Source: Candidatus Enterousia sp. (lineage in GTDB: Bacteria > Pseudomonadota > Alphaproteobacteria > Rs-D84). From it: a DNA stretch of 64,000 nt. Location of the stretch: NCBI GenBank assembly GCA_045539815.1, contig JAZQGC010000009.1, positions 9,064-73,063 on the forward strand. Direction: 5' to 3'. The notes beneath the pieces were generated by a model that saw only the letters and a list, made by a program, of their open reading frames with translations, made no database searches and was not told where the DNA came from. This document shows positions 46,085-46,302 of the stretch, piece by piece (positions within the stretch are counted from its first letter, which is position 1; every line of letters starts with the position of its first letter). Both the position numbers and the translations under genes were made by a program.

Positions 46085-46102
46085 AATAAATTATAATAAT
46101 TT

Positions 46103-46287
46103 ATCTAAAAGCGGTGCCGGCAACTCATGTAACATCTGTACACTACGTTGCCGGCACTACTTTTATCTAAATCATTCTAATTTATTTATAACAAGGCATA
46201 TCTACGGTCGGTCCCGACGGCTCATGTAACTTTTGTACACTAACGCCATCGGGACCGTTCCGTATCTAAATCGTTCTAATTTATTTA
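46103..46287. repeat. two tandem ~85-88-bp units, each an 11-12-bp stem with a conserved ~22-nt loop and conserved flanks
   Basis: Unit 1 has stem gtgccggcaac/gttgccggcac. Unit 2 has stem cggtcccgacgg/ccatcgggaccg. The shared loop is ctcatgtaac-tgtacacta, and the shared flanks are atcta… and tatctaaatc-ttctaatttattta. Confidence 0.6.
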
Positions 46288-46302
46288 AATCTGTTGGTTT
46301 AT

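What the first reader, a model, noticed from the sequence alone, without database searches (positions are those of the whole stretch)
46085..46302. Two tandem hairpin elements with conserved 22-nt loop and compensatory stem changes in the secretin 3' region
Both units share the flanks (atcta…, tatctaaatc-ttctaatttattta) and the loop (ctcatgtaac-tgtacacta). Their stems differ completely in sequence (gtgccggcaac vs cggtcccgacgg) yet remain base-paired. Structure is preserved while the stem sequence drifts, which is the signature of a functional RNA or DNA hairpin. They lie between the secretin stop (46084) and the first strong terminator (46309), so they would be in the secretin 3'UTR. Candidates are an sRNA/3'UTR regulatory element, REP/RAYT-like or IS200/IS605-like transposase target hairpins, or DNA-uptake-related repeats.
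Basis: seen in the sequence. Interest (0 to 1): 0.6.

Follow-up and report, generated by a model that had tools for sequence, protein, structure and literature searches.

The report
Palindromic repeat family at gene ends
The two hairpins are real, but they are not a secretin-specific regulator: they are two copies of an apparently undescribed ~100-nt palindromic repeat that sits, almost always in the same orientation, on the stop codons of about 30 different gene families in the tiny genomes of gut Alphaproteobacteria (Candidatus Enterousia and relatives).

Summary
Two tandem hairpins (window 46082-46190 and 46193-46287) share an identical apical module, CTCATGTAAC-NNN-TGTACACTA, and flanking arms. 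They lie between the secretin stop codon and a bidirectional terminator shared with rpsT.

They are not unique. The apical module occurs in more than 117 genome blocks from about 46 species-level MAGs of Ca. Enterousia/Rs-D84, which have genomes under 1 Mb. About 218 units were found, in arrays of 1-5.

In 117 of 120 arrays a gene ends 27-46 nt upstream of the loop on the same strand. The element's 5' end, TAAAA.., overlaps the stop codon. About 30 unrelated housekeeping gene families carry it.

Orthologous sites are filled or empty. Near-identical secretin genes carry different variants. Chimeric units, truncated units and units with an inverted loop occur.

Empty sites usually have a canonical terminator (29/41). 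Filled sites rarely do (24/123).

Stem covariation is very strong but shows no G·U-over-A·C bias. The conserved mismatches in the arms favour folding of the antisense strand.

There is no Rfam, phage or plasmid match, and no transposase was seen.

Best reading: a lineage-specific repeat resembling REP/BIME or MITE elements, turned over at the DNA level and co-transcribed as a 3' hairpin in the place a terminator would occupy. What recognises the invariant apical module is unknown.

The parts
46082..46084 (+). TAA stop codon of the secretin gene. It forms the first bases of the element's 5' end (TAAAAT...).
   Evidence: The ORF is 44456-46084 and matches Pfam Secretin. TAA is the stop in 61 of 62 long ORFs that carry the element, against 79% in the background.
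46084..46106 (+). Unit 1, left arm of type A (AAATAAATTATAATAATTTATCT), ending in the conserved ATCT.
   Evidence: (I1), and the alignment. It pairs with 46165-46187, with conserved T·C, A·C and UC/UC non-Watson-Crick positions.
46107..46123 (+). Unit 1, left half of the variable stem (AAAAGCGGTGCCGGCAA).
   Evidence: It pairs with 46148-46163. These columns show 3-4 Watson-Crick pair types across 136 copies.
46124..46147 (+). Unit 1, conserved apical module CTCATGTAACATCTGTACACTACG. It comprises a closing C-G pair, an internal loop, a small helix UGUA(A)C/GUACA and a variable 4-nt tip.
46148..46163 (+). Unit 1, right half of the variable stem (TTGCCGGCACTACTTT).
46165..46187 (+). Unit 1, right arm of type A (ATCTAAATCATTCTAATTTATTT).
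   Evidence: (D1).
46188..46203 (+). Linker (ATAACAA) followed by the truncated left arm of unit 2 (GGCATATCT, type-B-like). The outer left arm is missing.
   Evidence: the model match starts at position 17 of 111. The same linker, ATAAYAAGGCRTATCTA, occurs in arrays of other genomes: L033 and L043 and L059.
46204..46220 (+). Unit 2, left half of the variable stem (ACGGTCGGTCCCGACGG).
   Evidence: (I5).
46221..46245 (+). Unit 2, apical module CTCATGTAACTTTTGTACACTA-A-CG, with one extra A before the closing CG.
46246..46262 (+). Unit 2, right half of the variable stem (CCATCGGGACCGTTCCG).
46264..46286 (+). Unit 2, right arm of type A (ATCTAAATCGTTCTAATTTATTT).
   Evidence: (D1).
46303..46332 (.). 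Canonical bidirectional intrinsic terminator (AAAAAAATCCCC-AATC-GGGGATTTTTTTT). It lies between the array and the convergent rpsT gene. It is context, not part of the repeat.
   Evidence: I6, I8; rpsT at 46347-46607 on the minus strand. The same stereotyped AATCCCC..GGGGATT terminator occurs at 5820 and 19184.

Best explanation
The two hairpins form one array of a lineage-specific family of interspersed palindromic repeats. The family belongs to Candidatus Enterousia and related Rs-D84 gut Alphaproteobacteria.

A full unit is about 105 nt and has four parts:
- AT-rich outer arms, of two main types, whose 5' end TAAAA.. overlaps the stop codon of the preceding gene;
- a conserved ATCT on both arms, which gives a symmetric internal loop;
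- a 16-18-bp GC-rich stem whose sequence varies from copy to copy;
- an almost invariant apical module, TCATGTA(A/G)C-N3-4-TGTACACTAC.

What is shown:
- The family is dispersed after about 30 unrelated gene families.
- It is gained, lost, swapped, truncated, recombined and occasionally inverted at the DNA level. This happens much faster than the flanking genes diverge.
- It occupies the place immediately after the stop codon that a canonical intrinsic terminator otherwise occupies.

What is inferred:
- Because of its position and strict co-orientation with the gene, it is transcribed as the 3' end of the upstream mRNA. There it would act as a large 3' stem-loop. That could stabilise the 3' end, serve as a processing site or weak terminator, or affect the ribosome at the abutting stop codon, as reported for E. 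coli REPs.
- Copies spread and homogenise by recombination or gene conversion through the conserved arms and apex, or by an unidentified enzyme that recognises the apical module.

On this reading the 'compensatory' differences between units 1 and 2 reflect different family members placed side by side. They are not co-evolution at this locus.
For: Distribution:
- Exact loop matches occur in more than 117 blocks of 8 kb. About 46 species-level MAGs are represented, nearly all labelled Ca. Enterousia or Alphaproteobacteria.
- JBKSMR and JBKSMY are listed as Enterousia (order Rs-D84, genomes under 1 Mb) in PMC12306168.
- About 218 units were found, in arrays of 1 (73), 2 (50), 3 (12), 4 (1) and 5 (1).

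Position and polarity:
- In 117 of 120 arrays an ORF of at least 100 aa ends 27-46 nt upstream of the loop on the same strand.
- The downstream gene is co-directional in 49 cases and convergent in 50.
- In co-directional intergenic regions the element is in sense orientation 49 times and antisense once.
- TAA is the stop codon in 61 of 62 element-bearing long ORFs, against 79% in the background.

Not gene-specific:
- 30 upstream gene families carry it. Judged from their sequences, they include YebC, EF-P, FtsK, TrxB, ClpB, SecB, S13, S11, S18, GyrB, DnaN and outer-membrane proteins.

Turnover:
- The window's ftsK (ends at 3642) and its outer-membrane protein gene (ends at 5809) lack the element, although their orthologues in other species carry it.
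- In the filled/empty pair L064/L091 the element sits between the stop codon and a retained terminator.
- Secretin orthologues at 92-98% amino-acid identity carry different arm and stem types or rearranged arrays.
- Chimeric units, truncated 'secondary' units, inverted loops (L007, L033) and arms-only remnants occur.

Terminator niche:
- 29 of 41 empty orthologous gene ends have a canonical terminator within 90 nt.
- Only 24 of 123 filled ones have a terminator after the array (Fisher p = 4e-9; the sites are not phylogenetically independent).

Structure:
- 86% of cells are paired, against 69% after shuffling and 33-43% with slid partners.
- 36 of 44 pairs show changes on both sides.

No known family:
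- Nothing reaches the Rfam thresholds.
- There are no matches in viral contigs, plasmids or phages.
Against: - No transposase or recombinase was found. The only test was a tblastn with an IS200 TnpA sequence recalled from memory, run against about 0.85 Mb of flanking DNA.
- No target-site duplication could be defined, because the ends are AT-rich and palindromic. Transposition is therefore not shown.
- A purely selfish DNA element with nearly symmetric arms should insert in both orientations. The 117/120 polarity and the near-invariant 22-nt apex argue for a selected, strand-specific function.
- The conserved mismatches favour folding of the antisense strand, not of the mRNA strand. This does not fit a simple 'mRNA 3' hairpin' role.
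- No transcription data are available.
- The scan that found the family required the apical module. Its conservation is therefore partly due to how copies were found. A census anchored on the arms still finds the module, or a recognisable derivative of it, at almost every right arm.
Confidence: 0.6

Rival explanations
1. It is a dedicated cis-acting RNA element of the 3'UTR. The invariant apical module, presented on a stem of arbitrary sequence, would be the binding site of a clade-specific RNA-binding protein or RNase. The element would be kept by selection as the 3'-end-forming or stabilising signal, in effect replacing the intrinsic terminator. Its repeat-like spread would be secondary.
For: - The element is strictly co-oriented with the upstream gene and lies at a fixed distance from the stop codon.
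- It is anti-correlated with canonical terminators at orthologous gene ends.
- The apex is conserved while the stem covaries, which is the classic pattern of a protein-binding hairpin.
- On the sense strand, nearly all cytosines of the arms sit at unpaired positions (UC/UC and A·C). They could be recognition points.
- Linker hairpins often carry GCAA tetraloops on the sense strand.
Against: - The variable stem shows no excess of G·U over A·C on the sense strand.
- The sense RNA folds on average 10 kcal/mol less well than the antisense RNA.
- The element is dispensable at any given locus.
- Variants are swapped between near-identical genes.
- Copies sit between rpsM, rpsK and the downstream genes (L009, L018), where an efficient terminator would be harmful.
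- In the window, a canonical terminator still follows the array.
Confidence: 0.25
2. It is a structure-specific single-stranded DNA site. The bottom strand (antisense to the gene) would extrude as the better hairpin and be recognised by a recombinase or an HUH/Y1-type enzyme. This is the logic of integron attC sites, IS200/IS605 ends or REP/RAYT. Such an enzyme would insert, excise or exchange units in one orientation.
For: - All conserved non-Watson-Crick positions become G·U or tandem G·A on the antisense strand. This holds in type A arms, type B arms and the GC-rich-arm subfamily.
- The element overlaps the stop codon and has a fixed orientation relative to the gene, as attC sites do (own knowledge).
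- Units with left and right halves of different stem types (L082, L003, L059) suggest exchange within the conserved apex.
- Arms-only sites with a single ATCT occur next to filled sites flanked by ATCT on both sides (L015, L109).
- The antisense strand reads CGTAG at the foot of the apical mini-hairpin, which resembles the GTAG of REPs (own knowledge).
Against: - No integrase, RAYT or TnpA was found (a weak test).
- The attC consensus boxes (RYYYAAC ... GTTRRRY at the base of the hairpin) are absent. Here the apex is conserved rather than the base.
- The carriers are core housekeeping genes dispersed in the genome, not cassette arrays.
- Convergent genes each carry their own copy in opposite orientations only 100 nt apart (L033). 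Orientation therefore follows the gene rather than the direction of replication.
- Genomes under 1 Mb rarely keep active mobile-element enzymes (general knowledge).
Confidence: 0.12
3. It is a double-stranded DNA protein-binding or 'self' tag placed where it is tolerated. Examples would be a DNA-uptake sequence, or a site for a nucleoid or partition protein, lodged in terminator-like hairpins.
For: - The genome encodes DprA and a TcpQ/secretin pilus module next to the array.
- In Neisseria, uptake sequences often sit as inverted pairs in terminators (own knowledge).
- The apex contains two direct TGTA(A/C) half-sites 9-10 bp apart, and the palindromes CATG and TGTACA.
Against: - There is only one array in 64 kb, and at least 14 blocks in the richest MAG. 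Known uptake sequences occur about once per kb.
- Uptake sequences work in either orientation. Here the orientation relative to the gene is 117/120.
- The motif is single-copy in the loop rather than an inverted pair in the stem.
Confidence: 0.03

Closest known systems
REP/BIME elements of Enterobacteria and Pseudomonas, including REPIN doublets
   Same: - Short palindromic units dispersed in extragenic but transcribed DNA, mostly at gene 3' ends or between cistrons.
- A mosaic build from a few arm, stem and linker modules, in tandem clusters of variable size.
- Presence/absence and rearrangement between close relatives.
- A hairpin at or near the stop codon.
- REP-containing mRNAs are structured substrates of RNase R and PNPase (PMC12320835).
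- REPs within about 15 nt of a stop codon have been reported to stall ribosomes (Liang, Rudd & Deutscher 2015; own knowledge).
   Different: - In REPs and REPINs the stems (the REPs themselves) are the conserved part and the spacer or loop is variable. Here the apex is nearly invariant and the stem varies.
- REPs alternate in orientation within BIMEs. Here all units of an array point the same way and follow the gene.
- There are hundreds of REP copies per genome, against roughly one to a few dozen arrays here.
- No RAYT gene was found.
- The unit is about 105 nt rather than 20-40 nt.
MITE-like transcribed palindromic repeats (Neisseria Correia elements, ERIC/IRU of Enterobacteria and Yersinia, Rickettsia palindromic elements)
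   Same: - Imperfect palindromes of 100-150 bp with conserved terminal inverted arms.
- Insertion close to or into gene ends, sometimes supplying the stop codon or C-terminal codons.
- Co-transcription with neighbouring genes.
- Subfamilies and internal deletions.
- Occurrence in small host-associated genomes (Rickettsia palindromic elements).
   Different: - No target-site duplication and no parent insertion sequence could be identified.
- Orientation relative to the gene is almost fixed.
- The internal stem covaries freely around a fixed apex, whereas a MITE is conserved along its whole length by descent.
- Tandem arrays of truncated units are common here.
Integron attC sites (VCR-type chromosomal repeats)
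   Same: - An imperfect palindrome of 60-140 nt that begins at or overlaps the stop codon of the preceding gene.
- A fixed orientation relative to that gene.
- The sequence is variable but the structure is kept.
- The bottom strand is the better-folding strand.
- Conserved unpaired positions.
   Different: - The attC consensus boxes at the base of the hairpin are absent. Conservation here is at the apex.
- The carriers are dispersed core genes, not promoterless cassettes in an array.
- No integron integrase was seen.
Terminator-like repeat families (for example TRIT of Mycobacterium tuberculosis, described with the RNIE terminator models; own knowledge)
   Same: - A conserved repeated stem-loop at gene 3' ends, oriented like a terminator.
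- It takes the place of canonical intrinsic terminators.
   Different: - The hairpin here is much longer.
- The U-rich 3' side is paired with an A-rich 5' side.
- Copies occur inside a ribosomal-protein gene cluster and upstream of genuine terminators.

Membership tests
Any Rfam family (sRNA, cis-regulatory or ribozyme) | A match to a curated covariance model at its gathering score. | tested here: not met
   In gathering mode, only two tRNAs are found in the whole window. In E-value mode over 45500-47000, the only hits overlapping the units are far below threshold, and most are driven by the neighbouring terminator.
REP/BIME (RAYT-associated) | Dispersed extragenic palindromic units, clustered in mosaic arrays at gene 3' ends. 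| tested here: met
REP/BIME (RAYT-associated) | A conserved 20-40-nt palindrome with a 5' GTAG-type tetranucleotide. The stems are the conserved part, and adjacent units alternate in orientation. | tested here: not met
   The stems are the variable part and the apex is conserved. Units within an array are co-oriented, with 2 exceptions. A GTAG exists only inside the apical module on the antisense strand.
REP/BIME (RAYT-associated) | A cognate RAYT (Y1 HUH transposase) gene in the genome, typically flanked by REPs. | tested here: inconclusive
   A tblastn with an IS200 TnpA sequence recalled from memory, run against all loci and the window, gave nothing better than E = 0.75. Whole genomes were not available.
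MITE (non-autonomous derivative of a transposon with terminal inverted repeats) | Conserved terminal inverted repeats. | tested here: met
   The outer arms, of types A and B and a GC-rich variant, pair over about 24 nt.
MITE (non-autonomous derivative of a transposon with terminal inverted repeats) | A target-site duplication flanking the element. | tested here: inconclusive
   Filled and empty sites were compared. The AT-rich palindromic ends do not allow a duplication to be called. The internal ATCT...ATCT direct repeat around the stem and apex could be a duplication or a slippage substrate.
MITE (non-autonomous derivative of a transposon with terminal inverted repeats) | A parent autonomous element with the same ends. 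| tested here: not met
   No orphan left or right arms flank a gene in 0.85 Mb. There are no matches in viral contigs, plasmids or phages. Whole genomes were not searched.
Integron attC site | R''/L'' and L'/R' boxes (RYYYAAC ... GTTRRRY) at the base of the hairpin, with a variable centre. | tested here: not met
   The consensus of 136 copies has no such boxes. Conservation is at the apex.
Integron attC site | Arrays of gene cassettes next to, or once next to, an intI gene. | tested here: not met
   The carriers are dispersed core genes such as rpsM, rpsK, gyrB, dnaN, ftsK and efp. No model-based test for attC or IntI could be run.
Canonical intrinsic (Rho-independent) terminator | A short GC-rich hairpin followed directly by a run of U. 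| tested here: not met
   The GC-rich stem is separated from the U-rich end by about 24 nt of AU-rich, mismatched arm. A true terminator follows the array in the window. The element does, however, replace terminators statistically.
DNA uptake sequence (DUS/USS) | A very high copy number (about one per kb), in both orientations. | tested here: not met
   There is one array in 64 kb, and orientation is tied to the gene in 117 of 120 arrays.
IS200/IS605-type ends (palindrome-associated transposable elements) | Subterminal hairpins at both ends of an element that inserts 3' of a fixed tetra- or pentanucleotide, together with a TnpA(Y1) enzyme. | tested here: inconclusive
   Insertion is orientation-specific next to TAA(AA), but no TnpA was found (a weak test). 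The architecture is one long hairpin, not two different end hairpins.

The most novel reading that the evidence does not exclude
The element may be a strand-specific signal of a new kind, used throughout the Rs-D84 order.

One version: it is a 3'-end-forming module that has replaced intrinsic terminators at many genes. It would work through a dedicated factor that reads the invariant apical module and the regularly spaced unpaired UC dinucleotides of the mRNA strand. That factor could be Rho or a clade-specific RNA-binding protein.

The other version: it is a bottom-strand DNA hairpin site of an unrecognised recombination system, structure-specific and attC-like in logic but recognised at the apex. 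Such a system would insert units exactly at stop codons in genomes that have otherwise lost mobile elements.
Probability: 0.15. Interest if true: 0.75.

Novelty: new variant of a known kind. Interest (0 to 1): 0.5.

Why it matters
- It corrects a tempting misreading. Compensatory-looking stem differences between two neighbouring hairpins are not evidence for a locus-specific regulatory RNA when both are members of a dispersed palindromic repeat family.
- The family is interesting in its own right. These genomes are under 1 Mb and about 90% coding, and would be expected to have purged repeats. Yet a ~105-nt element persists across about 46 species.
- The element overlaps stop codons, is almost perfectly polar with respect to genes, statistically takes the place of intrinsic terminators, and keeps a 22-nt apex nearly invariant while everything around it changes.
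- That combination points to an unidentified trans-acting factor. It makes a concrete question testable with existing ruminant and human gut metatranscriptomes: how are mRNA 3' ends formed or protected in these uncultured bacteria?
- The motif is also a practical marker for binning Rs-D84 contigs. One contig labelled Bacteroides fragilis carries it.

Tried and rejected
- **Rfam.** Both gathering and permissive E-value modes gave nothing for the units.
- **Other copies in the window.** Mismatch searches for the loop and flank, and an unfiltered covariance-model search, found only the two units. The weak extra hits are ordinary terminators.
- **Phage or plasmid origin.** There were no exact loop matches in viral contigs. 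No plasmid match was found, and only chance AT-rich 35-nt matches in Aeromonas phages.
- **Y1 transposase.** A tblastn with a remembered IS200 TnpA sequence found nothing. This is a weak test.
- **Autonomous parent element.** No arm pairs flank a gene.
- **Target-site duplication.** Filled/empty comparisons left it undeterminable.
- **RNA strand from G·U versus A·C counts in the variable stem.** The counts are symmetric, so they do not support the sense RNA.
- **Polarity set by replication direction.** Rejected, because convergent genes 100 nt apart each carry a copy in their own orientation (L033).
- **Motif resemblances recalled from memory and not supported or not pursued:** IHF site, dif/Xer site, parS, CtrA box, Tus Ter site, attC boxes, ssoA CS-6 (TAGCGT is present in about a quarter of loops), the 16S rRNA region around position 1390 (UGUACAC), and the ATG-TAA/ATG-TAG start-stop in the loop.
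- **Literature.** Searches for Enterousia and Rs-D84 found genome descriptions but no mention of repeats.
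Full report
**1. The observation**

Unit 1 is a long imperfect palindrome. Its 41-nt arms lie at 46084-46124 and 46147-46187, are 85% complementary, and have 22 nt between them (I1). Unit 2 has a 13-nt core stem at 46209-46221 and 46245-46257, 92% complementary (I5).

The loop pattern CTCATGTAACNNNTGTACACTA occurs exactly twice in the 64-kb window, against a chance expectation of 0.01. The 25-nt right flank also occurs exactly twice, against an expectation of 0.00.

As RNA, the whole region 46085-46335 folds with z = -10.9. 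Unit 1 alone folds at -38.6 kcal/mol (z = -10.2) and unit 2 at -31.5 kcal/mol (z = -4.6).

The upstream ORF, 44456-46084, matches Pfam Secretin and is preceded by a TcpQ-like gene. The next gene is rpsT on the minus strand (46347-46607), followed by plsY, an unassigned ORF and dprA. The array therefore lies between convergent genes. It sits upstream of a textbook bidirectional terminator at 46303-46332 (I6).

Nothing in Rfam matches the units.

**2. The units are not unique to this locus**

I scanned one representative genome per prokaryotic species for the exact loop pattern. About 46 assemblies are represented. Nearly all are labelled Candidatus Enterousia or uncultured Alphaproteobacteria from ruminant, yak, sheep and human gut.

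Two exceptions:
- One hit, in a Levybacteria genome, lies inside an ORF without a hairpin and is chance.
- One contig labelled Bacteroides fragilis carries a typical unit after a trxB-like gene. It is probably mis-binned.

Two of the assemblies (JBKSMR, JBKSMY) are listed as Enterousia, order Rs-D84, in a paper describing this lineage. That paper reports genomes under 1 Mb with about 90% coding density (PMC12306168).

The window's secretin is 92-98% identical to those in five of these MAGs. The window therefore comes from an Enterousia genome.

A relaxed loop pattern finds about 218 units. They occur in arrays of one (73), two (50), three (12), four (1) or five (1), with units 76-114 nt apart.

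**3. Anatomy**

An alignment of 136 distinct full units defines four parts:
- An AT-rich left arm of two main types: A, AAATAAATTATAATAATTCATCT, and B, AAATTAAATCTAATGGCATATCT. A GC-rich variant occurs in some human-gut MAGs.
- A GC-rich variable stem of 16-18 bp.
- The apical module, C|TCATGTA(A/G)C-N3-4-TGTACACTAC|G.
- The complementary half-stem and right arm (ATCTAAATCATTCTAATTTATTT or ATCTATACCATTATCTTTAATTT).

ATCT is present on both arms on the same strand, which gives a symmetric UC/UC internal loop.

The pairing is strongly supported:
- 86.3% of cells are paired, against 68.9% after shuffling and 33-43% when the partners are slid.
- 36 of 44 pairs show changes on both sides.
- The covariation score is 0.457, against 0.151 after shuffling and at most 0.107 when slid.

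Most stem columns show three or four Watson-Crick pair types. The closing C-G pair of the loop changes to T-A in 11 copies.

The stem types form a continuum rather than unrelated classes.

One caveat applies. The 136 units were selected for being well paired, and the family was found through its apex. However, a census anchored on the right arm still finds the module, or a recognisable derivative of it, at almost every arm. The 3' half, TGTACACTACG, is the most persistent part.

**4. Position and polarity**

In 117 of 120 arrays with an identifiable 5' neighbour, an ORF of at least 100 aa ends on the same strand 27-46 nt before the loop. That places its end at or inside the left arm.

The downstream gene is co-directional in 49 cases and convergent in 50. 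In co-directional intergenic regions the element is in sense orientation 49 times and antisense once.

One exception (L007) and the one mixed-orientation array (L033) are units whose loop has been inverted relative to the arms. The other two exceptions (L057, L116) were not examined individually.

Two convergent genes 100 nt apart each carry their own copy (L033). Polarity therefore follows the gene, not the direction of replication.

The stop codon is TAA in 109 of 118 cases. Among long ORFs it is TAA in 61 of 62 with the element, against 79% without (p = 4e-5). The element's 5' end, TAAAA(A)T.., overlaps or supplies the stop. In the trxB family the last codons are encoded by the arm.

The carriers fall into 30 families. 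Judged from their sequences, these are ordinary housekeeping genes: YebC, an acyl-CoA ligase, EF-P, FtsK, TrxB, the secretin, ClpB, SecB, S13, S11, S18, GyrB, DnaN and outer-membrane proteins. Nothing links the element to secretion.

**5. Behaviour at the DNA level**

- The window's own ftsK (ends at 3642) and its outer-membrane protein gene (ends at 5809) lack the element. Their orthologues in other species carry it.
- Of 178 orthologous gene ends, 53 have no unit directly downstream.
- In the cleanest filled/empty pair (L064/L091), the element sits between the stop codon and a retained terminator.
- Secretin genes that are 92-98% identical are followed by different variants. L008 has type B arms and a ggttggcaatgg stem. 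L059 has the window's unit 1, then a chimeric unit 2 and a remnant without a loop.
- YebC genes 97.5% identical (L005/L007) carry different arms, a different stem and an inverted loop. They share only the outermost right flank.
- Many 'secondary' units in arrays keep the apex, right half-stem and right arm but lack the left arm. They follow a small GC hairpin or half a terminator.
- Some units combine a left half-stem of one type with a right half-stem of another (L082, L003, L059).
- Arms-only sites with a single ATCT exist (L015, L109).

These are the dynamics of a repeat family. The mechanism could be recombination, gene conversion, slippage or transposition. They are not the dynamics of a regulatory hairpin evolving in place.

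**6. Relation to terminators**

At orthologous gene ends without the element, 29 of 41 have a canonical hairpin-plus-T-run terminator within 90 nt of the stop. At ends with the element, only 24 of 123 have one after the array (odds ratio 10, p = 4e-9; the sites are not phylogenetically independent).

The element therefore occupies the terminator's place. Either it substitutes for the terminator or it displaces it.

Three observations argue against an efficient terminator:
- The GC stem is separated from the U-rich end by about 24 nt of mismatched AU arm.
- Units occur between rpsM, rpsK and the downstream genes (L009, L018).
- In the window a true terminator follows the array.

**7. Which strand folds?**

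The antisense strand folds better in 135 of 144 units, by 10 kcal/mol on average. Consensus folding gives -43 kcal/mol for the antisense strand against -27 for the sense strand. For unit 1 of the window the values are -48.5 and -38.6 kcal/mol.

The reason lies in the conserved non-Watson-Crick positions of the arms, the junction and the base of the apex. On the sense strand they are all pyrimidine·pyrimidine or A·C. On the antisense strand they become tandem G·A or G·U. The same holds in the GC-rich-arm subfamily, read.

The variable stem shows no such asymmetry. Sense G·T against A·C counts are 69 vs 68 over all units and 101 vs 82 in the alignment.

The stem's complementarity therefore does not carry the signature of selection on the sense RNA. 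The asymmetry of the arms is unexplained. It may mean that the bottom strand is the recognised hairpin. It may instead mean that unpaired UC dinucleotides are displayed on purpose on the mRNA strand.

**8. Interpretation**

The best-supported reading (about 0.6) is a lineage-specific interspersed palindromic repeat. It resembles REP/BIME and MITE elements in behaviour. It is turned over at the DNA level and co-transcribed as the 3' end of whatever gene it follows.

The likely consequences at the RNA level are inferred, not shown:
- protection of the 3' end or a processing site;
- partial termination;
- effects on the ribosome at the abutting stop codon.

REP-containing mRNAs are known structured substrates of RNase R and PNPase (PMC12320835). 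Stalling by stop-proximal REPs is from my own knowledge (Liang, Rudd & Deutscher 2015).

The strict polarity and the invariant apex show that this is not a neutral palindrome. Some factor reads the apex.

The rivals are:
- a dedicated 3'UTR RNA signal (0.25);
- a bottom-strand DNA recombination site with attC- or IS200-like logic (0.12);
- a double-stranded DNA tag such as an uptake sequence (0.03).

No transposase, parent element or target duplication was found. There is no phage or plasmid copy. No description was found in the literature searched.

**9. Verdict**

The finding is real and more than chance. The element is not a member of any tested known family, but it works most like REP/BIME or MITE-type repeats.

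Its architecture is unusual in four ways: a conserved apex on a covarying stem, overlap with the stop codon, near-absolute polarity relative to genes, and strand-asymmetric mismatches.

I rate it a new variant of a known kind, of moderate interest.

Noticed in passing
window 46303-46332; also 5820-5839 and 19184-19201: Terminators in this genome are stereotyped: A-run, then TCCCC-N3-5-GGGGA, then T-run. Three exact matches to AATCCCC..GGGGATT occur in 64 kb, against an expectation of 0.01. The same form recurs after many genes in the related MAGs. The one at 46303 is bidirectional and shared by the secretin gene and rpsT.
   Followed up: partly
window 43538-46084 and 48254-49315: A TcpQ-like gene plus a secretin (a pilus or secretion module) lies two genes away from dprA, the DNA-processing protein of natural transformation. 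This is in a lineage with genomes under 1 Mb. The paper on Rs-D84 (PMC12306168) reports type IV pili only for another lineage it studied (UBA9783). Competence in Enterousia may be worth a look.
   Followed up: no
L056 (CAVGNU010000003.1, labelled Bacteroides fragilis), 3785-4003: This contig carries two typical units after a trxB-like gene. That gene clusters with the one in Alphaproteobacteria UBA6376 (L063). The contig is probably mis-binned or mislabelled, so the apical motif could serve as a marker for Rs-D84 contigs.
   Followed up: no
L046, L051, L055, L074, L078 (human-gut Alphaproteobacteria MAGs): This subfamily has the same apical module, but its arms have become GC-rich (GGTCTGCG...CGCAGACC). 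The arms still pair and still have pyrimidine or A·C mismatches on the sense strand. It follows gyrB-like genes, among others. It shows that the arms also covary at greater evolutionary depth.
   Followed up: partly
L007 5151-5261 (-) and L033 about 5090-5220: In these units the apical module is inverted relative to the arms and to the gene. This is presumably the result of recombination across the palindromic stem. Only about 2 of 200 units are like this.
   Followed up: partly
L015 (about 60 nt downstream of its unit), L109 about 770-815, L107 89-111: These are 'empty' arms: a left arm, a single ATCT and a right arm, with no stem or apex. L107 has a perfect AT-only palindrome, AAATAAATTATAATAATTTATTT. 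They could be unoccupied target sites, or deletion products formed between the ATCT direct repeats.
   Followed up: partly
apical module, e.g. window 46127-46132 and 46224-46229: The loop contains ATG followed directly by TAA. In the common variant this is ATG-TAG, and GTG-TAA also occurs, so it forms a minimal start-stop ORF. About a quarter of loops read TAGCGT, and the 3' half shares UGUACAC with the 16S rRNA region around position 1390. These are probably coincidences. None was tested.
   Followed up: no
window 46294-46599 (+): This 101-aa ORF overlaps rpsT on the opposite strand and has no Pfam match. It is spurious. It had made the downstream neighbour of the array look co-directional in the automatic ORF analysis.
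   Followed up: yes
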